Under the pieces are notes generated by a model. That model worked only from the letters and a program-made list of their open reading frames with translations, was not told the DNA's origin and searched no databases. The translations under genes and the position numbers were made by a program. Below, piece after piece: positions 12,310-42,089 of a stretch of DNA of 64,000 nucleotides (positions are counted from its first letter, which is position 1; each line of letters begins with the position of its first letter). Source of the DNA: Promethearchaeia archaeon (GTDB taxonomy: Archaea; Asgardarchaeota; Lokiarchaeia; Sigyniarchaeales; SOKP01); contig JAHQWK010000004.1 in NCBI GenBank assembly GCA_029856145.1, forward strand, positions 180,641-244,640, in the 5' to 3' direction.

Positions 12310-14187
12310 TTAAAATAAAGATTGGATAAAAGTTTTAAAAATATTATAATCGTTGATAAATTCGTAGGAAAGGACTAAGTTGATGATTTTTGATTTGGCT
12401 GTTGGAAATATCTGTGAAAGCTCATTAGAGATTTTACCCCCTTTAAAAATAGAATCGTCTATTATCAAATTAATAGTATCTCCAACTTTTTTAATTTTTG
12501 AATAAAATCGATCGCTTAAATCGTGTTCAGACGATATTATAATTGTTGGTTTTCCTAAATATGGAATAAAGTCTAAATTAAAAATTAATACTTGACCGGG
12601 GACACTGCTGAGATTTTTAAAAAATTGTTTCAATGAAGCATTAAGGGTGTTTAACTCATTTTGGTTATAAATCTCTTTTGATGGAAAGACATAATACGCT
12701 ATTGATTTTTTTAGAGAATATTTCAAATCATTATATACACGATCTAATATTGGAAAAATGCTAAAATCAAAACTAAATAAAGATAAAAACGCAATTGGAA
12801 AATTGAAATCATTTACAAGAATATTACTGCTTACATTTCCACCAATTAAACTAAAATTTGTAATTTCCCTATTAACTTGAGAGATAAACGTATTCAATAA
12901 GAAATATTGAGAAAAAGCTAATGTAGCTTCAACTTTAGTTTGAATTTCATCTACCATTACATAAATAATATCGAATAGATTTTTTGTTAATTTTTCTTTA
13001 AGCTCTTGAATAGCAATAGTTTCAATAATAGAATGAGCTACTGTAGGACTATCAAATTCAGCAAGAGCATTAATTGCGTCCTTTATAAACTCATAAGATT
13101 GTTTTCTTAATTTTCTATTTTCTAGGTTGTTGCTATATGAATTATGGCTTAATTGAATGATTAAATTAAAAATTTTAATTACTTCAGATTGAGAATTCTG
13201 ACCATATAACTTTTTCGCTATATTAAACAAAACTCTTGTCTTTAGAAAATCATTATCTATTTGCTCTACTAATTTCTGAGCTGATAAGGGATTAGATTCA
13301 ATTACTTTACTAAATATAATGCTTATAAGATCTTCTTTAATAGAAGGATTTTGAATTAAAGATCCAGTTCTAATTGCTTGTTCAGGATTCACTAAAACTT
13401 GATCTAAAGCTAATAATTTCAATATCTTTTGTTGGAGATCTAAATCTTGTAAATTTCGAGCTACTTGGACCATTTGATTAAAATCTTTTGAGGCATAAGC
13501 TCGAATTAAATTTGTATATAAATTAATTTGTTCAGTCTTGTTGGATAGCATTAATGCGAACTCTAAAGCTTTTAGAGGATTATTAATTGAAAGATAACCT
13601 TTTGCTAACTGCTTTATATAAGCATCTATTTTTTCAAGCAGTTGAGAAGTCGACGAACCCATAGATCGTGCCGAATTGAATTCCTCTCTCAAAATTTTTA
13701 ACTGTTGTTCTGCCTTTTTTATTGCATTTTGATCCATATTAATGAAATAATCTTCTGAATTAAACATTTCAACCTTTTCTGTAATGGTAAAAGCATAATT
13801 TTTTAAAATTGCGTTCATTTTGCTAACTGGGACAACCCCTCTGACTTTTTGTACTTTTACCTTATATTCAGTAATCTTAAGCCAATTTACATTAATAATT
13901 AATTTACCAAAACCATCAGCAGTTGGCTCTAACTTTAATGTTATATCCTTGGTTTCTCCCGGACCAAATTCTATATGGGTGTTAAATTCTTCGGGTTGTA
14001 ATCTAATGTTTAAGTTTTCTCCCTCAAAATCGAATTTAAATGTCTCTTTTTTGCTTGAAGTGTTTACCGTCTGAATTTTGATCTCATTATCAATACCGGT
14101 AATTAATAAATTTTGCGGGAATTTTGTTATATTTAAAGAGATGATTTTATCTGCGTTTGACATAATTCGAAGGTTCTTCTTGTTCAC
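12310..14187 (-). CDS. Hypothetical protein: Ig-like N-terminus and helical-repeat middle
   Basis: 625-aa ORF co-oriented with the ligase; likely start is the ATG of MSNADK. Confidence 0.6.
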   Translation of the reverse strand: MNKKNLRIMSNADKIISLNITKFPQNLLITGIDNEIKIQTVNTSSKKETFKFDFEGENLNIRLQPEEFNTHIEFGPGETKDITLKLEPTADGFGKLIINVNWLKITEYKVKVQKVRGVVPVSKMNAILKNYAFTITEKVEMFNSEDYFINMDQNAIKKAEQQLKILREEFNSARSMGSSTSQLLEKIDAYIKQLAKGYLSINNPLKALEFALMLSNKTEQINLYTNLIRAYASKDFNQMVQVARNLQDLDLQQKILKLLALDQVLVNPEQAIRTGSLIQNPSIKEDLISIIFSKVIESNPLSAQKLVEQIDNDFLKTRVLFNIAKKLYGQNSQSEVIKIFNLIIQLSHNSYSNNLENRKLRKQSYEFIKDAINALAEFDSPTVAHSIIETIAIQELKEKLTKNLFDIIYVMVDEIQTKVEATLAFSQYFLLNTFISQVNREITNFSLIGGNVSSNILVNDFNFPIAFLSLFSFDFSIFPILDRVYNDLKYSLKKSIAYYVFPSKEIYNQNELNTLNASLKQFFKNLSSVPGQVLIFNLDFIPYLGKPTIIISSEHDLSDRFYSKIKKVGDTINLIIDDSIFKGGKISNELSQIFPTAKSKIINLVLSYEFINDYNIFKTFIQSLF

Positions 14188-14286
14188 TTTATTAATACTA
14201 ATCCAAAATATCTCATTATTTTTTAGGTTTAATAATTAATAATGGATTAACTAGTTTAGGTTTAATTAACAAAAAGCAATGAAGTT

Positions 14287-15054
14287 TTATTTTCCCATTC
14301 TTCGATTTCTTCTTAAATAATCTTCTATATCTTCAATTACCATTTCTTTATTATAATCAGGCCATAAATCCTCTCTAAATTTAAATTCAGCATAAGAAGA
14401 ATCCCATAACAAAAATCCTGAGATTCTTGCTCCATCATCCATTCCAGTTCTAATGATGTAATCTACTGGAGGGAAATTTTTCGTATAAAGATATTTTTTA
14501 ATTAAATCCGTATTTACATCTTCTGGATTAACACCATCACTGATTATTTCCTTTACAGCGTCGACTATTTCTTCATGACCATCATACATAATACAAAGGT
14601 TTATGAAATTTTGGTCATGTTTCTTAGTAAATTCAATTAATTCTTCAATTTTTTTCTTTGCATTCTCTGGTAACATTGATATCCTACCAATAACATTGAA
14701 TTTAACTTTTTCTTCTTTGACAATCGATTCATTTATTACCGTATCGACTGCTTTAATCACTATCTTATAAATATACTCAAGTTCCTCAGGTTTACGTTTT
14801 TTCACATTTTCAAGTGATAAAATATACAAACTTAAATATTGGATCCCCGCATCAAAAAAATCAAATAGCCTCTTTTTGAGGTTTTCATATCCGACTAGAT
14901 GACCAAAATTGATATCAAGGTTTCTTTTTTTCGCCCATCGTCTGTTTTTGGTTAAAGGGGGAAATCCCTTTTAAATACCATCAATGATGAGCCCGATATG
15001 CTTAGGTAACCTATCTTTTCCAGTTTTTTTTAATTCTTCTAAAGTAGTGACCAT
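14287..15054 (-). CDS. uppS: cis-prenyltransferase (undecaprenyl diphosphate synthase family), split by a 30-nt intron; 245 aa spliced
   Basis: Exon 1 MVTT...PKHIGLIIDG; exon 2 NRRWAKK...SLEN...IRTG..RISGFLLW..SYAE; in-frame TAA at 14971-14973 lies within the insertion. Confidence 0.92.
14946..14975 (-). other. Putative bulge-helix-bulge mRNA intron in uppS (30 nt)
   Basis: TTTAAAAGGGATTTCCCCCTTTAACCAAAA hairpin; removal gives GAT GGT AAC AGA CGA TGG (DGNRRW). Confidence 0.85.
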
Positions 15055-15189
15055 CTAACCAATTAAAAAGTTGTATTATTTTTAATATTAATATTAAATA
15101 TTAGAGTTATTAATTTTATCTAAAAATTTTTTATTATATAAATTTATGATTTAAACTCTTACCAACTTAACATCGTTGATTGGGTTTAT

Positions 15190-15431
15190 TTTTTTAGAAC
15201 AATCAGGAGGAATTTTAAATTTATAAGCGATTATCTCATCTTTCATTGACATGTCTAGCTTTTCCTCTGCCTCATAATAGATTCAATTTCATCAAAAGTG
15301 CTTATCTCATCGATGTTGATATTCAGCAATAAGAATGCATACTGAATGAACCTTGCACGAGAGATATAAATTACTGTCTCCTCATCTTCGAAGCGAAGTG
15401 ATAAATATTCATTTACTATAAATTCTTGCAT
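15190..15431 (-). pseudogene. Frameshifted N-terminal fragment of a Loki-type LRR-associated protein family
   Basis: MQEFIVNEYLSLRFEDEETVIYI...FDEIESI continues in another frame as EAEEKLDMSMKD...KIPPD, then decays. Confidence 0.55.
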
Positions 15432-15705
15432 GTTTTCTTTGAGTAGGTTTTTCAATATTATAATATTACCTATTTAAATTGAACGACTCCACAAATTTAA
15501 ATCATTATCCTCATAATTAATGATAAGTGAGATAATCATATGACAAATCTTTAGATTATTACTCTTCATACTCTTATTATTCGAAATTATCATTCATATC
15601 ATTAATTTTAAATACTATTTTGCAATACTTTGGTTTAATTAGATAAGTTTTTGAATAAATAAATATTACATTAAAGAAAAAAAAAGAAATTCAGAGATAC
15701 GGTTA

Positions 15706-17382
15706 ATGCTTTCTAACGATTATTTATTTTCGAACATTGGAATTGATTCTCTATCGTTTTTTTCGCCCAGAACTTATGTTGATTTACGTGAACTTGCGAG
15801 AGAACGGAATGTAGATCCTAATAAATATACTAAGGGTCTTCTGTCTAAGGAGATTCGAATACCTGAAGTTGATGAAGATGTTGTTTCTTTAGGTTTAAAA
15901 GCAGGTTATAATACCTTACAAAGAGGTGGTATCTCTCCTAAGAGTATTGATGCTTTGTTTTTTGGAAACGAAACTATAACATATAGTGTCAAGTCGATCT
16001 CTAACATTTTTGCCGAAATGTTAGATATTTCTCCTAATTCGATTACTCAAGACATATATAATGCTTGTGCAGGCGGAACAATAGCAATTCTTAACGCTAT
16101 AGGTTTAATTGAAAACAATATTATTAATAAAGCCCTCATTATAAGTGCTGATATCTCATCATATCGTATAGGTTCGCCCGGTGAGCCAACACAAGGTTCA
16201 GGAGCTATTGGATTGGTTATCTCGAAAAATCCTCGAATAGCTAAATTTAGTAAAAATTTTGGAAAGATATCAGGTAATGTTAATGACTTTTTCAGACTTC
16301 CAAATGATAAAAATGCACAAGCATATGGTAAATATTCTCAAGAGGCTTATTTTAAATTCCAGCTTGGTGCATATGATGATTTAATCAAACATATTGGGGA
16401 TTTTCATGCAGATTTCTATACATTTCATGCACCATACTCGAAACTTCCGATAAAGATAATGCAACAAATAATACTAAAGCGTTGGATTAAACATATATAT
16501 GAACTACCTAAATTTGAGAGAAAAGCGATTAGATCATCCATACTTACGAAGCTTGATCATTTTCTACATGATGTAACCGTATTACCAGAATATCTTTATT
16601 TAAAACTAAAAGAAAGAGGATATTCTTCCCCCACTTTAGAGAAATTTTCATATTGGGTGAACACAAATGTAAAAGAACGAGTACTTCCTCAACTAAATGT
16701 TCCAATGCACTTTGGTAACATGTATAATGCTTCGCTTTGGGCTCAAGTCCTTTACCTTCTCGAAAACCATGCTCGTGTTGATGATACAATTTATTTTGGT
16801 TCATACGGCTCGGGAGCGACTTGTATTTCAGGGCTTCTAAAAGTTCAAGATGATTTTAAGAAAATTATTCAGAATGGTCCTCACATTGATGACTTTATAA
16901 ATATGAAAAAGAGAAAAAGCGTTCAAGAATACGAATTAATAAAGAATGGTACTACTAAACCAAAGATTTTATTGGGTTATATTGTTGAACATGAACAAAA
17001 TAATGAAAGAGGCTTTACCCTTCATTACTGTGATGATGGGTGCCTTATCCCGAATATAAAAGGATTAGATCACTGTCCGAAAGGGCATTCAGGATATCAT
17101 AAACGGTTTTTCCCTCTCTTTGCGAAGTTGAATAGCGATCCAATTGCTCAATCAGATATCAATGATCTCAAATATTTAAAAGAAGGGTTAGTAAGAGTAG
17201 CTAGTAATGTAAAAAAAGGCAGTGCTTTAGAGTATGAAATAAGAAGAGTTGAGAATGAAAACGAGGGAAATCTAAACGCAAAAGGATTATTAAATTGGAG
17301 TCCTATATATTTGCCAATATCAGAAAAATATTTAATAAAAAGAGATAATCAAATCGAAGATCTGCCTATTGTTCTTGAATAA
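15706..17382 (+). CDS. mvaS: HMG-CoA synthase with C-terminal DUF35-like extension
   Basis: ED, GNET, NACAGG (catalytic Cys), GEPTQGSGA, FHAPY, GNMYNAS. Confidence 0.9.
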   Translation: MLSNDYLFSNIGIDSLSFFSPRTYVDLRELARERNVDPNKYTKGLLSKEIRIPEVDEDVVSLGLKAGYNTLQRGGISPKSIDALFFGNETITYSVKSISNIFAEMLDISPNSITQDIYNACAGGTIAILNAIGLIENNIINKALIISADISSYRIGSPGEPTQGSGAIGLVISKNPRIAKFSKNFGKISGNVNDFFRLPNDKNAQAYGKYSQEAYFKFQLGAYDDLIKHIGDFHADFYTFHAPYSKLPIKIMQQIILKRWIKHIYELPKFERKAIRSSILTKLDHFLHDVTVLPEYLYLKLKERGYSSPTLEKFSYWVNTNVKERVLPQLNVPMHFGNMYNASLWAQVLYLLENHARVDDTIYFGSYGSGATCISGLLKVQDDFKKIIQNGPHIDDFINMKKRKSVQEYELIKNGTTKPKILLGYIVEHEQNNERGFTLHYCDDGCLIPNIKGLDHCPKGHSGYHKRFFPLFAKLNSDPIAQSDINDLKYLKEGLVRVASNVKKGSALEYEIRRVENENEGNLNAKGLLNWSPIYLPISEKYLIKRDNQIEDLPIVLE

Positions 17383-17435
17383 TAAGATACTACTACTTTT
17401 TTATCCTCATAACTAATTTTACATCCGCATTCAAT

Positions 17436-17996
17436 TTATTCATCTCCCCACCTCTTAATGTCACTTTCCACCCCAATTTGGTCAAGAATCCTCCCTACAG
17501 TATGATCGATAAGTTCATCAACGGATTCTGGATTAATGTAATAAGAAGGAATTGGGGGTGCAATTACAACACCTAAATTTGCTAGTTTAAGCATATTCTC
17601 TAAATGTATTGGACTTAATGGACTTTCCCTTACAATAAGAATTAGTTTTCGTTTTTCTTTTATTGTTACATCCGCAGCTCTTGTAATTAAATTATCAGAA
17701 TAACCATTAGCTATTGATGCTAAAGTTTTCATAGTACAAGGAACAATGATCATTCCATCAGTTTTATACGAACCACTAGCAGGTGGAGCAGTCAAATCAT
17801 TTACATCATAATAAGTTGTAGCTAATTGTTGAATATCAGTAATTCTTATGTTAGCTTCACTTAAAAGAACTAGTTCAGCTGCTTTAGATATGATTAATTC
17901 AGTTTCAATATTTTTTTCTTTTAAATAATTTAATAATTTCACTGCAATTGATATACCTGAGGCACCAGTTATCGCAATAAGAATCATAATTCTCAC
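17436..17996 (-). CDS. ubiX: Flavin prenyltransferase
   Basis: AITGASG, ASGS, PCTMKTLASIANGYSDNLITRAADV, RESPL. Confidence 0.95.
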   Translation of the reverse strand: MRIMILIAITGASGISIAVKLLNYLKEKNIETELIISKAAELVLLSEANIRITDIQQLATTYYDVNDLTAPPASGSYKTDGMIIVPCTMKTLASIANGYSDNLITRAADVTIKEKRKLILIVRESPLSPIHLENMLKLANLGVVIAPPIPSYYINPESVDELIDHTVGRILDQIGVESDIKRWGDE

Positions 17997-18114
17997 AGAT
18001 ATTTGATTGTAAATTTAAATTTCTTCTAAGTATTAATTAATTAGGAATAATAATTATTTTTTGTATTAATTGTAAAAATGTATAATAAAAAATACTTTTC
18101 TAAGATAAAATCGA

Positions 18115-19404
18115 TTGTTAATTATGAGTGGATATAATTCTGAAATTTCTGGTTTTTATAAATTATCAATAAAAAAACGCAGAGAACTATTATCTGAACT
18201 TATTAATTTTAATGAAAATGATATAAAACTTCTGGAGAATTTAGGTTACTTTACAGAAACTCAAATTGATACCTTTATAGAGAATGTAATTGGTTCTTAT
18301 CAATTACCAATTGGAATTGCTTGTAATTTTAAAGTAAACAATAAGGACTATTTAATCCCTATGGTTATTGAAGAACCTTCAGTTGTAGCAGCAGCCTCAA
18401 ATGCAGCAAAAATAGCTAGAAAACATGGAGGTTTTCACTCTGAGAATGTTAAATCAGTAATGATCTCTCAAATTCAAATAACTAACGTAAAAGATATTGA
18501 ATCTGCTAAAAGGAAATTAGAAGAAAATAAGGAAAGCATTTTAAAATACGCAAATGAAAAAGATCCTCTCTTAATAAAATTAGGTGGCGGAGCTTTTGAT
18601 TTTGAAATTCGAGAGTTAACAACGAGAAGAGGAGAGATGTTGATTGTTCATTTATTAGTTGATGTTTTAGATGCCATGGGGGCGAATGTGGTAAATACTA
18701 TGGCTGAAACCATTAGTCCGTATATAGAAGAAATATCTGGAGGCAAGATATATCTTAGAATTGTATCCAATTTGGCAACTCATCGAATAGCGAAAAGTAA
18801 AGCAACATTTGATAAGGATTTATTAGGTGGAGACGAAGTAGTAGAAGGGATCTTAAATGCATATGAATTTGCACTAGCAGATCCTTATAGAGCTACAACC
18901 CATAATAAAGGAATAATGAATGGAATTATAGCTTTAACGATGGCTACAGGAAACGATACGCGAGCTATTGAATCTGGGGCACACGCATATGCTGCATTGA
19001 ATGGACAATATTCTCCATTAACCAAATTTCAGATTGATTCTAATGGAAATTTAGTAGGAGAAATAGAAGTCCCTCTTGCTCTAGGCATTATTGGAGGGAT
19101 GACTAAAATACATCCTATGGCTCGACTAACTTTAAAAATTTTAAATATCAAAAGTGCAAATGAACTTTCTCAAGTAGCAGCTGCGCTTGGTTTAGCTCAA
19201 AATGTGGCCGCCTTAAGAGCCTTAGCTTCAGAAGGAATCCAAGAAGGTCACATGGTTCTCCATTCGAGAAATATTGCAAAACTTGCAGGCGTACCTGAAA
19301 AGTTAATAGAAAAAGTAGCAAGCAAATTAGTAGAAGATAAGAAAATTAGAGTTGACCATGCGAAAGAAATTTTAAAAAGAATACTTAATAATGAAAACCT
19401 TTAG
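18115..19404 (+). CDS. mvaA: HMG-CoA reductase, class II
   Basis: IENVIG, EEPSVVAAAS, DAMGANVVNT, RATTHNKGIMNG, EGIQEGHMVLH. Confidence 0.95.
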   Translation: MLIMSGYNSEISGFYKLSIKKRRELLSELINFNENDIKLLENLGYFTETQIDTFIENVIGSYQLPIGIACNFKVNNKDYLIPMVIEEPSVVAAASNAAKIARKHGGFHSENVKSVMISQIQITNVKDIESAKRKLEENKESILKYANEKDPLLIKLGGGAFDFEIRELTTRRGEMLIVHLLVDVLDAMGANVVNTMAETISPYIEEISGGKIYLRIVSNLATHRIAKSKATFDKDLLGGDEVVEGILNAYEFALADPYRATTHNKGIMNGIIALTMATGNDTRAIESGAHAYAALNGQYSPLTKFQIDSNGNLVGEIEVPLALGIIGGMTKIHPMARLTLKILNIKSANELSQVAAALGLAQNVAALRALASEGIQEGHMVLHSRNIAKLAGVPEKLIEKVASKLVEDKKIRVDHAKEILKRILNNENL

Positions 19405-19471
19405 TTTTATAAAATTTGTTTCTGTAACTCAAAATATTAGTCAATTAGATCGAAATAAGTTTATGAGATGA

Positions 19472-20782
19472 ATGAAATTTATGGGCTTTAGAGAATATAT
19501 AAATCAAATTGATGAAGAAGGTCTTCTTCGAAAGGTTGAAATTGAAGTATCGAAAAATTTAGAGATTCCCGGAATTTTGAAAGAGATTGAACCAACTCCA
19601 GTTATGTTTAATCATGTTAGAGAATCGGAATTTCGTGTAATTGGTAATGTTTTCTGTACTAAAAATGTAATTGCTTCATATTTCGGTGTTACTCCTGCAG
19701 ATCTCATACCAATGCTCTCAAAAGCGATTTCAGAACGTTCAGAACCAGAAGTTGTTTCTAGGGCTCCTTGTCAAGAAGTCATTGAATCAGGAGTTGATTT
19801 AGATAATCTTCCAATTTTATTCCATTGTGAAAAAGATGGTGGAAATTATATTAGTTCTGCTGTTGTTATTACTCGAGATCCTGATTATGGACAAAATATG
19901 GATTTTCATCGAGCAATGCAATTTTCAAAAGGAAAATTTTCAACTCGAATAGTAAGGGGTCGTCATTTTCACAAATTTTTAGAAAAAAATGGTGAATTAG
20001 ACGTAGCTTTTTGTATAGGAAATACTCCAAACATTCTAATTGCTGGAGCAACTTCTGTAGATATTGGAGTTGATGAATTACAAATAGCAAATGCATTAGA
20101 ACCTATTAAAGTAGTTAAAGCAAGTTCAGTAGATCTTCTAATACCTGCAGAAGCAGAATTCATTTTAGAAGGACGTGTTTATTTAGAAGAAAAACATTCA
20201 GAAGGTCCTTTTGTTGATCTAACTGAGACCTATGACACGATTAGAGAAGAACCCGTCTTTGAAGTAAAAAAAATCACTCATAGAAAAGATGCGATTTGGC
20301 AAGCTTTATTACCAGGTGCACTTGAACATAAAATATTAATGGGGATGCCTCGAGAGCCAACTATATTTAATAAAGTAAAGGAAGCAGGAGTAAAGTGTTT
20401 AGATGTAAATGTAAATCCTGGAGGTTGTTCATGGTTACATGCAATAGTCCAGATTGATAAAAAAACAGAAGAAGACGGGAAAAAAGCGATATTTGGTACC
20501 TTTACAGGGCATAGAAGTTGTAAACATGTTTTTATTGTTGATAAAGATATTAATATTTATGATCCTCTCTCTGTAGAATGGGCGATGGCAACTCGCTTCC
20601 AAGGAGATACCAGAATGATAGTGAAAAATAAAGAACCAGGCAGTAGTTTGGACCCCAGTGCTGAACCAAGCAGTAAGTTAACTACCAAAATTGGGTTTGA
20701 TTTAACTAAACCACTTGTCGTTAAAGGAAAGAGTTTTGATATTGCAGAATTTCCAAAAGTTGATCTGAACAAATATTTTTAA
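19472..20782 (+). CDS. UbiD-family decarboxylase, probably anhydromevalonate phosphate decarboxylase
   Basis: DGGNYI, EGPFVD, VEWAMATR, SSLDPS; mevalonate operon context. Confidence 0.9.
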   Translation: MKFMGFREYINQIDEEGLLRKVEIEVSKNLEIPGILKEIEPTPVMFNHVRESEFRVIGNVFCTKNVIASYFGVTPADLIPMLSKAISERSEPEVVSRAPCQEVIESGVDLDNLPILFHCEKDGGNYISSAVVITRDPDYGQNMDFHRAMQFSKGKFSTRIVRGRHFHKFLEKNGELDVAFCIGNTPNILIAGATSVDIGVDELQIANALEPIKVVKASSVDLLIPAEAEFILEGRVYLEEKHSEGPFVDLTETYDTIREEPVFEVKKITHRKDAIWQALLPGALEHKILMGMPREPTIFNKVKEAGVKCLDVNVNPGGCSWLHAIVQIDKKTEEDGKKAIFGTFTGHRSCKHVFIVDKDINIYDPLSVEWAMATRFQGDTRMIVKNKEPGSSLDPSAEPSSKLTTKIGFDLTKPLVVKGKSFDIAEFPKVDLNKYF

Positions 20783-20799
20783 GATGAGGAAAGGAAAAA

Positions 20800-21993
20800 A
20801 TGAAATTAACATCAGAAGAACAGGACACGCTGGATGGCAAGCACGGTAAAGCTGCCCAAAAATCAATGGAAATTTTAACCACATTGGGCGAAATATTTGA
20901 TGCTGAATGCATGATCGATGTATATGGCGTTCAGATAGCTGGAGTATCGTACGCCAATCTAGGGGAAGCAGGTTTGGAATTCTTAAGCGAAATGGCAGAA
21001 GATGGAAAAGTTAGAGTTTTAGCGACATTAAATCCAGCAGGAATGGATCGTGAAAATTGGCAAGCTTTAGGAATAGATGAAGAATTTGCTAAAAATCAGA
21101 ATCGAGCAATTGATGCATTTGCCAAAATGGGTATAATTACAACATGCTCTTGTACCCCATATTTAATTGGAAATGCTCCACACTACGGTCAACATCTTGC
21201 ATGGGCTGAAAGTAGTGCTGTATGTTATGCAAACTCAGTTATAGGTGCTAGAACTAACCGTGAGGGTGGTCCAAGTGCTTTAGCTTCAGCTATAACCGGA
21301 AAAACGCCAAAATATGGTTATCATTTAGATGAACATCGTCATGGAGAGGTATTAGTTAAAATAAATGCTCCAATTAAAGGTACTGATGGATTTGGTGTTT
21401 TGGGAAAAATAATTGGGGATAAATTAGTCGAGTTAGGAAAGAAAATTCCTTATATAACAGGAATTCCTTCTGCTACAGTTGAAGAACTCAAATCTTTTTG
21501 TGCATCAGTTGCGACTTACGGTGGAACAGCTTTATTCCATATGAAAGGTATAACTCCAGAATATAATAATTATCAGAAACCTAGTGATATTGTTTTTGAA
21601 ATTAATCAAGATGACTTAGATAGAACGCGATTGGAACTTATTGATGATGATATTGAGATAGATTTTGTTAGTATAGGGTGCCCTCATGCTTCAATTCACG
21701 AAATTGCAAAGATTGCGAGCTTATTGAAGGGAAAGAAAGTAAAAAAAGAATTTTGGATCACGACTGCTCGACCTACAAAAAGAATTGCTGATGAAGCGGG
21801 TTATTCTAAAATAATTGAAAATGCAGGAGCGAAATTTGCAGCAGATACTTGTTGTGTTGTTGCTCCAATTAAAGAACGTTTTAAAGGAATTATGGTAGAT
21901 TCAGCAAAAGCTTGTTATTATGGTCGTGCAAAGAACAAATTTAAAGTAAAAATTGGTTCAGTTGAAGAATGTGTTGAGGAGGCAATAAAATGA
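20800..21993 (+). CDS. Phosphomevalonate dehydratase large subunit (aconitase X)
   Basis: GVSY, CSCTPY, ESSAVCYANSVIGARTNREG, GCPH, DTC. Confidence 0.9.
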   Translation: MKLTSEEQDTLDGKHGKAAQKSMEILTTLGEIFDAECMIDVYGVQIAGVSYANLGEAGLEFLSEMAEDGKVRVLATLNPAGMDRENWQALGIDEEFAKNQNRAIDAFAKMGIITTCSCTPYLIGNAPHYGQHLAWAESSAVCYANSVIGARTNREGGPSALASAITGKTPKYGYHLDEHRHGEVLVKINAPIKGTDGFGVLGKIIGDKLVELGKKIPYITGIPSATVEELKSFCASVATYGGTALFHMKGITPEYNNYQKPSDIVFEINQDDLDRTRLELIDDDIEIDFVSIGCPHASIHEIAKIASLLKGKKVKKEFWITTARPTKRIADEAGYSKIIENAGAKFAADTCCVVAPIKERFKGIMVDSAKACYYGRAKNKFKVKIGSVEECVEEAIK

Positions 21994-22379
21994 AATTAGC
22001 TGGTAGAAAAATCTTTAAAGGTACTGCTGAGGCAGAAGCAATTGTTACACAAGATGGAATTTCTTTTTATGGTGGTATTGACCCTGATACAGGAAAAGTA
22101 GTTGAAGTTGGCCATGAGCTTGAAGGACAATCGATATCAGGAAAAGTGTTGGTTTTTCCAACCGGTAAAGGATCAACAGTGGGATCTTATACCATGTATA
22201 GAATGAAAAAGAATAACACTGCTCCTGTTGCAATCGTTAATAAAGAAATCGATACAATTGTTGCAGTAGGGTGTATAATCAGCGAAATTCCTTGTGTGGA
22301 TAAAATTGATATAAGTAATATCAAAACAGGACAAAAAATTATTGTTAATGGTTCTGAAGGAACTGTGGAGGTAAAATAA
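21990..22379 (+). CDS. Phosphomevalonate dehydratase small subunit (DUF126 swivel domain)
   Basis: ISFYGGIDPDTG, GKGSTVGSY. Confidence 0.9.
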   Translation: MKLAGRKIFKGTAEAEAIVTQDGISFYGGIDPDTGKVVEVGHELEGQSISGKVLVFPTGKGSTVGSYTMYRMKKNNTAPVAIVNKEIDTIVAVGCIISEIPCVDKIDISNIKTGQKIIVNGSEGTVEVK

Positions 22380-23346
22380 ATGGGAGTCGGAAAAGGATAT
22401 GGAAAGACCATACTTTTTGGTGAAATTATTTTCCTATTTCAGGAATAAACACTATCATTTTGTTGTGTATGGTCTTCCAGCAATCGCATCAGCTTTAGGA
22501 TCCTCTACGACTGCTGAAGTTAAAGTAGTCAAGGGTAATGGTTGGACAGTTAATGATCAAAGACTTGCAACACCAGGTTACAAAAAGAAGAAATTCAATG
22601 AGGCAATACAATCAATTAAAAATGTAATTGAACATTTGAGAGTGGATACCGAGAATAAAAAACTTGAAATAAAATTTGCGGGGGATCTGATTGCCGCTAG
22701 CGGAGTAGGTGCTTCAGCTGCTCAATGTACATCACTTTCCCGAGCTTTAAATGACACGTTTAATCTCAAATTAACTGAAAAAAAGATAAATGAGGCAGCT
22801 TATGAAGGAGAGAAAGCCTATCATGGTACTCCTTCAGGTATTGATAACACAGCCTCTACTTATGGTGGTTTAATTTGGTTTGTTAAAAACTTGAGAGGGG
22901 GGGAAAATACGATGGAACTTCTACAGTCACCAAAGAAAATGCCCTTAGTAATAATAAATTCAGGAATAACAGCTTCTACAACAGAAGTAGTAGCTGATGT
23001 TCGACGTTTAAAAGAGGAATCTCCTTTAAAATTTGAAAAAATCTTTAATAATTATGAAAAATTAGCATTAGCAGCAAAAAAAGCCTTACTTGAAGGAAAT
23101 ATTAACACTGTTGGTGACCTAATGAATCAAAACCACAAATTACTACAAGATATAACGGTATCTGGAGAGATTAATGATAAATTAGTCGAAATCTCCTTAC
23201 GAAATGGGGCTAAAGGTGCTAAAATGACAGGAACAGGGCGAGGTGGTTTGGTCATAGCATTAGCTGAAAATGAAGAAATTCAAGATGAAATCGCCAAAAC
23301 TATTGAAAAAAAAGGATATAATGCCTGGAAAACCATGATTGGATGA
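22380..23346 (+). CDS. mvk: Mevalonate kinase split by a 31-nt intron; 311 aa spliced
   Basis: Exon 1 MGVGKGYGKTILFGE starts immediately after the upstream stop; exon 2 HFVVYG...GVGASAA, HGTPSGIDN, KMTGTGRGG. Confidence 0.93.
22425..22455 (+). other. Putative bulge-helix-bulge mRNA intron in mvk (31 nt)
   Basis: ATTATTTTCCTATTTCAGGAATAAACACTAT; central helix GGTG/CACT with 3-nt bulges; removal gives GGT GAA CAT TTT (GEHF). Confidence 0.9.
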
Positions 23347-25252
23347 GTGGGAGTTAAAATTGAAAAGTGATAATGAGATATTTCTATTAAAGTTAGGAGG
23401 TAGTTTATTAACTGATAAGAATAAACCTTTTTCTCTTAGAGAAGAGGTTTTAGAGAACTGTCTTAATCAAATTATTGAAAGTAAAAAATCAATTATTTTA
23501 ATTCATGGAGGCGGATCATTTGGGCATCCAATTGCTAAAAAATATCAAATTTCTGAAGGACTAAATGATACTGTCAAGGATCAAATAATTGGACTTTCAA
23601 AAACCCATGAGGTTATGAATAAATTTAATTCTATAATAATAAACAAATTATTAGATAAAGGATATCCCGCAATTTCGATTCAGCCTTCTAGTATTTTTGT
23701 AAAAGATTTTAATCAAATAAAAATAAATACAATAGAACCTATTGAAAAATTACTTGAACTTGGAATAATCCCGGTTTTATATGGTGATATTGTTTTAAGT
23801 TGGGATTCTTATTTTTCAATTCTTTCAGGAGATCAAATTATTTTAAAACTATGTGAAAAAATTCAAAATTTTAAGATTTCAAAAGTCATATTTGCAATTG
23901 AAAAGGATGGTATCTTCATAAAAGACAATGGAAACGAAAAACTGGCTTTAAAATTAAGTTCCAACGATTTAAATAATCTAAAATTGGCTGAATTAGATCA
24001 AAAAATAGATGTTACTGGGGGGATAAAAGGTAAACTAGAAACAATTAAAGAAATAATAAAATTTAATATCCCTGTTCAAATTGTTAATGGGCTTAAGAAT
24101 AAAAATATTCTAAAGGCATTACTTAATCAATCTATAGAATGTACTAATATTAAAGTGCCATCTGATAAAAGATTTGAAAATAAATTATATAATAGGAAGA
24201 TAGAACACATAGAAATCCCTTTAAAGTATAATGTGCAACATTCAAAGAACTATTTTGATGATATAAATCTACTTCATCATCCCCTACCGGAGTATGAATT
24301 AGAGGATATTGATCTTTCTGTTGATTTTTTTAAAAAAGAAATTTCAGCTCCTATATGTATTGCAGCAATTACAGGTGGCCATGAAATTTCTAAAGCAATT
24401 AATAATATCTTAGCAAATGCTGCAAGTTCAGAAAATATTATTATGAGTGTTGGATCTCAAAGAATAGGCTTGGAGGATCCTTCCACCATTGATTCATTTA
24501 AAGTTGTACGTGATGTTGCCCCTAATATTCCAATAATAGGAAATTTGGGAGTTGGACAGTTATGTGATCCTAATTTTAATTTAGATCATTTTAATAAATG
24601 CATTGAGATGATTAATGCTGATGTTATGGCTATACATTTGAACGCTTTACATGAACTTACTCAAAGTGATGGTAATCTTTCTTATAAAAATTTTGAAGAA
24701 ATATTTAAAGAAATAAGAAAAAATCTGAAAATTCCAATTATAGCTAAAGAAGTGGGATCAGGGTTTAATAAGGAATTAGCGTTAAAACTCGATTCATTAG
24801 GAATTGATGGATTTGACGTTGGAGGAATGGGGGGTACTAGTTTTGCTGCAATAGAGTCAATACGCGATGATTCTAGCTATGAAGTATATACTCGAAAGAT
24901 TGCAGACACTTTTCGAGAATGGGGCATTCCAACACCCGTAAGTATAATCAATGTTAGAAAAGCCACTAAAAAACTTATAATAGCAACAGGAGGCTTAAGA
25001 AATGGTCTAGATATAGCCAAAGCAATCTCAATTGGAGCAAATATCGGGGGATTTGCATTTAAGTTTTTAAAAACAGCATGGCAAGATTATAAAAATAATA
25101 CTTTGTCAAATACAATCAAGGAGATAAAAACGCTGAAACAAGAATTAAGATCCTCACTATGGTTAATGAATATAGATAATATTGATAAGCTAATAGGTAA
25201 TGACGATAAAAGGGTTTTATTGGGCAAATTATATCAATGGATAAATCAATGA
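23339..25252 (+). CDS. fni: Fusion of isopentenyl phosphate kinase and type 2 IPP isomerase
   Basis: KLGGSLLTDK, HGGGSFGH, DVTGG; then RKIEH, GSQR, HLN, KEVGSG, GGTS, WGIPT. Confidence 0.92.
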   Translation: MDEWELKLKSDNEIFLLKLGGSLLTDKNKPFSLREEVLENCLNQIIESKKSIILIHGGGSFGHPIAKKYQISEGLNDTVKDQIIGLSKTHEVMNKFNSIIINKLLDKGYPAISIQPSSIFVKDFNQIKINTIEPIEKLLELGIIPVLYGDIVLSWDSYFSILSGDQIILKLCEKIQNFKISKVIFAIEKDGIFIKDNGNEKLALKLSSNDLNNLKLAELDQKIDVTGGIKGKLETIKEIIKFNIPVQIVNGLKNKNILKALLNQSIECTNIKVPSDKRFENKLYNRKIEHIEIPLKYNVQHSKNYFDDINLLHHPLPEYELEDIDLSVDFFKKEISAPICIAAITGGHEISKAINNILANAASSENIIMSVGSQRIGLEDPSTIDSFKVVRDVAPNIPIIGNLGVGQLCDPNFNLDHFNKCIEMINADVMAIHLNALHELTQSDGNLSYKNFEEIFKEIRKNLKIPIIAKEVGSGFNKELALKLDSLGIDGFDVGGMGGTSFAAIESIRDDSSYEVYTRKIADTFREWGIPTPVSIINVRKATKKLIIATGGLRNGLDIAKAISIGANIGGFAFKFLKTAWQDYKNNTLSNTIKEIKTLKQELRSSLWLMNIDNIDKLIGNDDKRVLLGKLYQWINQ

Positions 25253-41381: not shown

Positions 41382-41463
41382 AATCTTGGTTAATCAGTCT
41401 TCAATTTATATTACTATATAATTTTACTAATATATTACTATTTTGACTTTTAAAAATATCTAA

Positions 41464-41548
41464 TGCGGGAAGGGAGATTTGAACTCCCGAACTCCTTTGA
41501 GACTGGATTCTGAGTCCAGCACCGTTGACCAGGCTTGGCTATTCCCGC
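41464..41548 (-). tRNA. tRNA-Leu(CAG), intronless, CCA not encoded
   Basis: GCGGGAA/TTCCCGC acceptor stem, CTGGA-CTCAGAA-TCCAG anticodon arm, long variable arm, GTTCAAATC. Confidence 0.97.
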
Positions 41549-42089
41549 AAGCTTTTTTCAAAATCGAGAAACTCACCTATAACTCCTTTTAATTAAGAAA
41601 TCTTGCATTCTATTTAGATTTTAATAATTCTTAACAATTTTTTTATTGTTATCATTAAATGGATGAGTTATTATCGATTAATTCCTCGTTATATTCATAC
41701 AACCGAATGGGTTTGATATGCTAACCCTTGTATATCAAATATGGTTAAAGAACGTGTTATTTGCTTTCTCCCTCCTTAAGTTTTAGATTTGAGAAACTTT
41801 CAAGTCTTTGTAGTCGTCTTATTTCATTACGAATTTGAATTCCATTTATCTAACCTCCTTTTAATTTGATTTTTTTATTTTCTTCTCTAAAGTGTCTATT
41901 TCGGCAGATCTGACCAAATACGCGAAAAATCAAAAGATTAAGATCTTCAAGATGCCTTATTTCATTGGTTAAGTGATATGTTTCTAATGTTCTGTGTGAT
42001 TGCTTGAAACATTGAAACATCTTAGAATTAGATATCTAAATTAGAAGCAGAGAATATGAATAGAAAAAAGATTATTTTAATTATTTTTA

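What the first reader, a model, noticed from the sequence alone, without database searches (positions are those of the whole stretch)
14287..23346. Candidate system: bulge-helix-bulge mini-introns in protein-coding genes of an Asgard isoprenoid pathway
Seen: two genes of one pathway (uppS, mvk) each carry a 30-31 nt hairpin insertion 15-26 codons into the gene. Each sits inside the signature motif, contains a stop in the exon-1 frame, is closed by the identical loop AUUUC, and has exon-exon pairing on either side. Cutting after the second nucleotide of each 3-nt bulge regenerates the exact conserved peptide in both. Established: archaeal EndA cuts BHB motifs at those positions and RtcB ligates; the well-known archaeal mRNA case is crenarchaeal cbf5, also split at a catalytic motif. 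Inference: this lineage splices mRNAs with tRNA machinery, possibly gating isoprenoid and lipid-carrier synthesis post-transcriptionally. The stems differ while the loop is shared, which hints at a recognition signal or a common mobile origin. I am not aware of such introns in these genes, but novelty needs a literature check.
Basis: partly seen in the sequence, partly recalled or inferred. Interest (0 to 1): 0.96.

Follow-up and report, generated by a model that had tools for sequence, protein, structure and literature searches.

The report
tRNA-type mini-introns in Asgard mRNAs
Two single-copy lipid-pathway genes of this Asgard archaeon, and at least eight unrelated housekeeping genes in the same genome, are broken by 28-32-base hairpins shaped like archaeal tRNA introns, so their messenger RNAs very probably have to be cut and re-joined, which the papers I could search show inside an archaeal coding sequence for one gene only (cbf5).

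Summary
Both inserts are real: 30 nt in uppS (14975-14946, minus strand) and 31 nt in mvk (22425-22455). Both genes are single-copy. Removing the inserts at the bulge-helix-bulge (BHB) cut sites gives 245-aa and 311-aa proteins matching intron-less orthologs. Distinct orthologs carrying them: mvk 32 of 51, uppS 14 of 64, with compensatory changes and constrained silent flanks.

A motif-free comparison with a relative found the same class in aIF2-gamma, uS3, uL11, NifU and a B12-binding protein; motif-guided checks added pyrG, rnhB and a histone. Relatives have it at five EF-2 sites. The 98 introns at 18 sites share one geometry: about 9-bp stem, 5-nt loop. The genome encodes an (alpha-beta)2 EndA with its catalytic triad and specificity loop, plus RtcB.

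EndA/RtcB splicing is very likely (0.9), but no spliced transcript was found. Isoprenoid-specific gating is not supported: the introns are genome-wide and patchy, and the AUUUC loop is only the commonest variant. The scan has reported this class before on other DNA, including mvk; I found no paper describing it.

The parts
14976..15054 (-). uppS (cis-prenyltransferase) exon 1: 26 codons plus 1 nt; ends in the central-helix strand (14981-14978) and two bulge bases
   Evidence: orthologs
14946..14975 (-). 30-nt BHB intron with in-frame TAA: 9-bp stem (one mismatch), loop AUUUC (14965-14961), central-helix partner (14951-14948), 3' bulge
   Evidence: present in 14 of 64 distinct orthologs
14287..14945 (-). 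uppS exon 2; spliced protein 245 aa; only cis-prenyltransferase in the genome
   Evidence: (TIGR00055)
22380..22424 (+). mvk exon 1: 15 codons ending GKTILFGE; holds the 5' arm of the exon-exon helix (about 22401-22413) and the central-helix strand (22419-22422)
22425..22455 (+). 31-nt frame-shifting BHB intron with TAA in the exon-1 frame; loop AUUUC (22436-22440), central-helix partner (22450-22453)
   Evidence: present in 32 of 51 distinct orthologs
22456..23346 (+). mvk exon 2, with the 3' arm of the exon-exon helix (about 22467-22478); spliced protein 311 aa; single copy
   Evidence: (TIGR00549)
15706..22379 (.). Uninterrupted genes of the modified archaeal mevalonate cluster: HMG-CoA synthase, UbiX (minus strand), HMG-CoA reductase, UbiD, AcnX large and small subunits
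   Evidence: no intron in orthologs
23339..25252 (+). Isopentenyl-phosphate kinase / type-2 IDI fusion, uninterrupted (context only)

Best explanation
The two inserts are archaeal BHB introns in mRNA. They belong to a standardised 28-32-nt class scattered through protein genes of one Lokiarchaeia (Promethearchaeota) family; this genome's tRNA genes carry introns of the same size. Shown from sequence: the pre-mRNA can fold so that the last six bases of exon 1 and the last six of the intron form the central helix and two 3-nt bulges, closed by a 9-bp intron hairpin on one side and an exon-exon helix on the other. Inferred from established enzymology: the cell's (alpha-beta)2 EndA cuts after the second base of each bulge, and RtcB joins the exons, restoring the frame and the motif. 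Inferred, weaker: the introns are tolerated parasites, not pathway switches. They sit in highly conserved motifs and come and go between close relatives, at least partly by homologous recombination that exchanges the site together with its flanks.
For: (1) The cut sites defined by protein homology coincide with the BHB register. At 7 sites with a unique, motif-free boundary there are 3.5 of 4 central pairs and 6.4 of 7 stem pairs at shift 0, against 1.1-2.4 and 2.2-3.3 at shifts of 1-6 nt. (2) Exon-intron covariation at silent positions. mvk pair 3 is C-G in 30 and U-A in 2 orthologs, never broken, while intron-less genes use A9/G5/T4/C1 there. uppS pair 2 is U-A in 9 and C-G in 5. (3) The exon-exon duplex is stronger with the intron: mvk -15.0 vs -6.7, uppS -11.1 vs -6.3 kcal/mol. 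mvk flank DNA is 90% identical against 82% for the gene body only when both genes carry the intron. (4) Exon 1 stays under protein selection: synonymous to non-synonymous codon differences are 1039:87 (mvk) and 445:101 (uppS). Both genes are single-copy. (5) In a motif-free census of 1,675 ortholog pairs, all frame-breaking inserts with flanks at least 80% identical are 28-32 nt; seven form BHBs and one is doubtful. (6) aIF2-gamma is interrupted in 29 family genomes and EF-2 in 21 checked genomes at five sites. (7) The EndA alpha subunit keeps Tyr/His/Lys and the loop lysine matching Aeropyrum K44; a second subunit and RtcB are present (PMC5829648).
Against: No spliced transcript or cleavage assay. 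A metagenome scan open to both forms returned 10 loci, all unspliced, and two near-identical intron-less alleles turned out to be recombinant-looking DNA, not cDNA. The uppS central helix often has only 2-3 standard pairs. In this genome a register one base away is about 0.8 kcal/mol more stable and would excise 28 nt, out of frame. The predicted minimum-energy folds are not the exact BHB conformers. Orthologs are related, so pair counts overstate independence.
Confidence: 0.9

Rival explanations
1. The introns are a dedicated post-transcriptional switch for isoprenoid and lipid-carrier synthesis.
For: Two genes of one cluster carry them. The two introns co-occur somewhat more than chance (odds ratio 6.9, p=0.11, not corrected for kinship). 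Unspliced mRNA cannot make active enzyme.
Against: The same class is in translation, nucleotide, Fe-S and chromatin genes. Presence changes at least 7 times (mvk) and 4 times (uppS) on the gene trees. Many close relatives have neither intron. No feature distinguishes the two introns from the rest of the class.
Confidence: 0.07
2. The inserts stay in the mRNA and ribosomes hop over them (translational bypassing, as in phage T4 gene 60 or yeast mitochondrial byps; comparison from my own knowledge).
For: Similar size, a hairpin, and a stop codon just after the break.
Against: Bypassing needs matched take-off and landing codons. Only 5 of 98 inserts have a boundary repeat of 3 nt or more, and 26 of 31 mvk inserts have none. 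Many sites split a codon. Bypassing does not explain the exon-intron helix placed exactly 2 nt from each boundary, nor the exon-exon helix.
Confidence: 0.03
3. The genes are pseudogenes or are translated from downstream starts (mvk has an ATG at 22399 in the exon-2 frame), or the inserts are assembly errors or transposon scars.
For: Public gene callers annotate 293-315-aa mvk products with wrong N-termini.
Against: The inserts recur in independent assemblies and across genera. Exon 1 is under purifying selection. The alternative mvk frame is closed three codons upstream of the query start in several species (open frame 296 aa). No second copy exists. There are no target-site duplications. Essential genes such as EF-2, aIF2-gamma and uS3 are affected.
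Confidence: 0.02

Closest known systems
cbf5 pre-mRNA intron of Desulfurococcales and Sulfolobales (Watanabe 2002; Yoshinari 2006; Yokobori 2009, PMC2738675)
   Same: Short BHB-type intron inside a coding sequence, at a catalytic motif, with relaxed BHB, cut between the second and third bulge bases by a hetero-oligomeric EndA; patchy gain and loss.
   Different: One gene in one crenarchaeal lineage, with cDNA evidence. Here there are at least ten genes per genome, 18 sites seen, a narrow 28-32-nt geometry with a shared pentaloop, an Asgard host, and no transcript evidence yet.
HVO_1309 5' UTR intron of Haloferax volcanii (Schwarz 2020, PMC7714728)
   Same: BHB intron in an mRNA, cut by EndA in vitro.
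   Different: 46 nt and in the untranslated leader, so it does not break a reading frame.
Non-canonical tRNA introns of Asgard archaea (bioRxiv 10.64898/2026.10.13.758758)
   Same: BHB geometry, repeated independent gains, (alpha-beta)2 EndA. tRNA genes of this genome carry 29-31-nt BHB introns too.
   Different: That study covers tRNA genes, focuses on other Asgard families, and does not mention mRNA introns.
XBP1/HAC1 mRNA splicing in eukaryotes (own knowledge)
   Same: Protein-catalysed, spliceosome-free removal of a short frame-changing intron, ligated by RtcB in animals.
   Different: Cut by IRE1 at stem-loops, not by EndA at a BHB, and it is a regulated single-gene switch.

Membership tests
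Archaeal BHB (EndA-spliced) intron | [quoted passage not shown] | tested here: met
   mvk 4 of 4 pairs; uppS 3 of 4 (relaxed form); boundary-shift control and covariation
Archaeal BHB (EndA-spliced) intron | Cut after the second base of each bulge gives the correct product | tested here: met
   Restores GEH (the only boundary that does) and DGNRRWA, matching intron-less orthologs; a competing 28-nt register exists for uppS in this genome
Archaeal BHB (EndA-spliced) intron | Flanking intron helix and exon-exon helix | tested here: met
   Seven outer uppS stem pairs kept in 13-14 of 14 orthologs; eight outer mvk pairs in 24-30 of 31; exon duplex stronger with the intron
Archaeal BHB (EndA-spliced) intron | Host encodes an EndA able to cut relaxed motifs, and a ligase | tested here: met
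   Two EndA subunits; alpha has the triad and L1 loop lysine; RtcB intact (PMC5829648)
Archaeal BHB (EndA-spliced) intron | Cleavage by EndA or spliced mRNA demonstrated | not testable with these tools
   No RNA reads available; search for spliced junctions in assembled collections found none
cbf5 intron family | Located in the cbf5 catalytic Asp codon | tested here: not met
   Host genes are uppS and mvk; works like the cbf5 intron but is not its ortholog
Translational bypass elements | Matched take-off and landing codons | tested here: not met
   Boundary repeat of 3 nt or more in 5 of 98
Group I / group II self-splicing introns and curated RNA families | Ribozyme core or Rfam match | tested here: not met
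   30-31 nt is too short for a core; no Rfam match reaching a gathering score in 14000-24000
Homing or retro-mobile introns | Homing endonuclease or reverse transcriptase in the host | tested here: inconclusive
   No PF00078 or PF14528 match in this genome; each found in 1 of 4 relatives; other families not searched

The most novel reading that the evidence does not exclude
In this Lokiarchaeia family, EndA/RtcB splicing is a general mRNA-maturation step for many genes. The introns are a mobile class that still colonises new sites, and their shared 9-bp stem and pentaloop are read by a dedicated factor, making splicing a regulated checkpoint on translation, nucleotide and lipid synthesis in a close relative of eukaryotes.
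Probability: 0.25. Interest if true: 0.95.

Novelty: new variant of a known kind. Interest (0 to 1): 0.85.

Why it matters
The papers I could search list cbf5 as the only archaeal coding sequence with a BHB intron. Here one Asgard genome has at least ten such genes, including uS3, uL11, aIF2-gamma, CTP synthase and a histone. If spliced, routine spliceosome-free mRNA splicing exists in the archaeal lineage nearest to eukaryotes, which bears on how introns arise and spread. The polymorphic sites and near-identical allele pairs make gain and loss directly testable. It also has a practical cost: of the 121 best mvk homologs only 35 begin with the intact motif, and most of the rest are truncated or wrong-frame calls, so Lokiarchaeia proteomes and marker genes are mis-annotated.

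Tried and rejected
Motif-only genome scans gave thousands of candidates and could not stand alone, so I used a homology-first census. A relaxed tRNA search was noisy; only GC-rich genes whose length after excision fits a tRNA were used. The search for spliced cDNA failed: a pattern open to both forms found 10 unspliced loci. Two intron-less proteins 98% identical to interrupted ones had divergent exon-1 DNA, so they are not spliced copies. Longer aIF2-gamma matches outside the family are ordinary in-frame loops without BHB. The other two GHMP kinases of the genome are not mevalonate kinases. The candidate at C2:207975 was set aside: weak stem, and it lies upstream of the likely start. The mvk structure I bracketed by hand was mis-indexed, and its energy is not used. 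Five literature searches found no report of these introns, but the library lacks most subscription papers.

Full report
Observation. The region is a modified archaeal mevalonate cluster in a 3.55-Mb, 97%-complete genome whose nearest relatives are Promethearchaeota/Lokiarchaeia MAGs. uppS starts at 15054 on the minus strand and stops at a TAA inside a 30-nt insert (14975-14946). mvk starts at 22380 and is frame-shifted by a 31-nt insert (22425-22455). Deleting them gives 245-aa and 311-aa proteins. For mvk only one boundary restores GEH; for uppS three adjacent ones restore DGNRRWA. In both, a homology-allowed boundary is the BHB register. The mvk insert is identical in ten contigs from independent samples, and the uppS insert in the three of these that reach it. 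Each gene is the only copy found.

Orthologs. Among distinct sequences, 32 mvk genes carry the insert and 19 do not; for uppS the numbers are 14 and 50. By open-frame length, about 56 of 89 family genomes have an interrupted mvk (proxy checked against 18 loci). The introns are about 73% identical within a site, yet pairing is kept. The silent third base of the mvk Gly codon pairs with the intron as C-G in 30 cases and U-A in 2, whereas intron-less genes use all four bases. The silent base of the uppS Asp codon pairs as U-A in 9 and C-G in 5. The exon-exon duplex averages -15.0 kcal/mol with the mvk intron and -6.7 without (uppS -11.1 and -6.3). Flanking DNA is more conserved than the gene body when both genes carry the intron (mvk 0.90 vs 0.82; intron-less pairs 0.82 vs 0.81), and the effect is small for uppS. 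Exon 1 changes are mostly synonymous. These counts are not independent of kinship.

It is not confined to the pathway. I fetched a whole relative (G022, CP070805) and aligned 1,675 of its proteins to this genome with a free gap state and no motif. Frame-breaking inserts with well-conserved flanks were all 28-32 nt: mvk, uppS, aIF2-gamma (P-loop), uS3, uL11, NifU (CxxC) and a B12-binding protein (DxH), plus one doubtful case. The reverse comparison gave EF-2, a metallo-beta-lactamase-fold protein and a zinc-ribbon protein. Motif-guided checks added pyrG, rnhB (shared with G022) and a histone. This is a lower bound, since G022 is 81% complete. Seven other genes of the cluster have no intron in 21-59 orthologs each. 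Across the class, aIF2-gamma is interrupted at one P-loop site in 29 genomes from several genera. EF-2 shows stops in 26 genomes, and the 21 checked have introns at five sites. All are in the host's family. None was seen in the 22 and 24 genomes of other families for these two gene segments.

Anatomy. The 98 distinct introns at 18 sites are 28-32 nt. The 30-nt form is one bulge base, a 9-bp stem, a 5-nt loop, the stem partner, four helix bases and two bulge bases. The stems share little sequence. The loop tends to R-W-Y-U-C/A (U at position 4 in 95% of site-weighted cases), and the first base of the 3' bulge is A in 90%. For seven sites with a unique motif-free boundary, pairing peaks sharply at shift 0. 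tRNA genes of the genome hold BHB introns of 29-31 nt at non-canonical positions.

Machinery. There are two EndA paralogs and one RtcB. The first subunit's best structural-database match is the Aeropyrum catalytic subunit; Tyr, His, Lys and the loop lysine equivalent to K44 align. The second lacks the catalytic His. PMC5829648 reports that this (alpha-beta)2 type with the L1 loop is general in Asgard archaea and cuts relaxed motifs. That fits the mismatched central helices seen here.

Mechanism. Shown: structure potential, covariation, restored frames, machinery. Inferred: cleavage and ligation in vivo (0.9). One weak point: in this genome the uppS intron has a second register, 0.8 kcal/mol more stable, that would excise 28 nt and lose the frame; only one other ortholog of 14 has it. 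On dynamics, presence changes 12 times on the mvk tree (7 forced by strong branches) and 7 times on the uppS tree (4 forced). In two pairs of near-identical mvk alleles that differ by the intron, mismatches cluster in exon 1 and upstream (and, in one pair, the first 20 nt of exon 2), while the rest is 96-99% identical. This suggests exchange of the site with its flanks by recombination, but these are short metagenome contigs and could be chimeras, and the direction is unknown. No reverse transcriptase or LAGLIDADG_3 match was found in the genome. How new sites arise is open.

Rivals. Pathway gating (0.07), ribosomal bypassing (0.03) and pseudogene or artefact (0.02) are treated above. Gating and splicing are not exclusive.

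Comparison with what is known. The class works like the cbf5 intron (PMC2738675), which a 2020 paper still names as the only other mRNA case beside a Haloferax 5' UTR intron (PMC7714728). The 2009 paper notes that introns in other protein genes had been predicted but not confirmed. A 2026 preprint on Asgard tRNA introns does not mention mRNA. I found no paper on these genes, within an incomplete library. This scan has noted the same class many times in other genomes, including mvk and rnhB; those notes are not independent evidence.

Verdict. It is a new variant of a known kind. Interest 0.85.

Noticed in passing
G000 C1:34460-34488 (+), outside the window: A histone gene carries a 29-nt insert. 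BHB excision gives the N-terminus MAKKVFAW of an intron-less ortholog, and three other interrupted orthologs have a perfect central helix and no AG acceptor there.
   Followed up: yes
G000 C5:34200, C8:31453, C28:14768, C10:33334, C19:57732, C18:61155, C23:64816: Further BHB mini-introns in aIF2-gamma, uS3, uL11, NifU, a B12-binding protein, RNase HII and CTP synthase.
   Followed up: partly
   Followed up: partly
L326 (G017:C4): EF-2 with two 30-nt introns, at residues 30 and 63.
   Followed up: partly
L411/L412 and L413/L414: Near-identical mvk alleles with and without the intron; divergence is confined to exon 1 and upstream, suggesting recombination across the site.
   Followed up: partly
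uppS, aIF2-gamma and EF-2 residue 34 sites: Three unrelated sites share the exon hexamer ATGG-(A/T)A, and some uppS and aIF2-gamma introns match at 20 of 30 positions (median across sites 13), a hint of intron movement between look-alike sites. Not tested statistically.
   Followed up: no
window 23339-25252: IPK and IDI-2 are fused here but are separate genes in several relatives.
   Followed up: no
L254 (uppS ortholog): The uppS intron has lost its in-frame stop in one genome, so an unspliced transcript would give a 10-residue insertion in the active-site motif.
   Followed up: no
window 41463-41549 (-); G000 C8:12915-13007: tRNA-Leu(CAG) in the window; the genome has a selenocysteine tRNA; ARAGORN finds only about 19 tRNA genes at default settings, probably because of non-canonical introns.
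   Followed up: no
G000 C3:138162 (-), C9:450000 (-), C19:13689 (-): High-ranking motif candidates without ortholog support; may be further introns or ordinary gene junctions.
   Followed up: no
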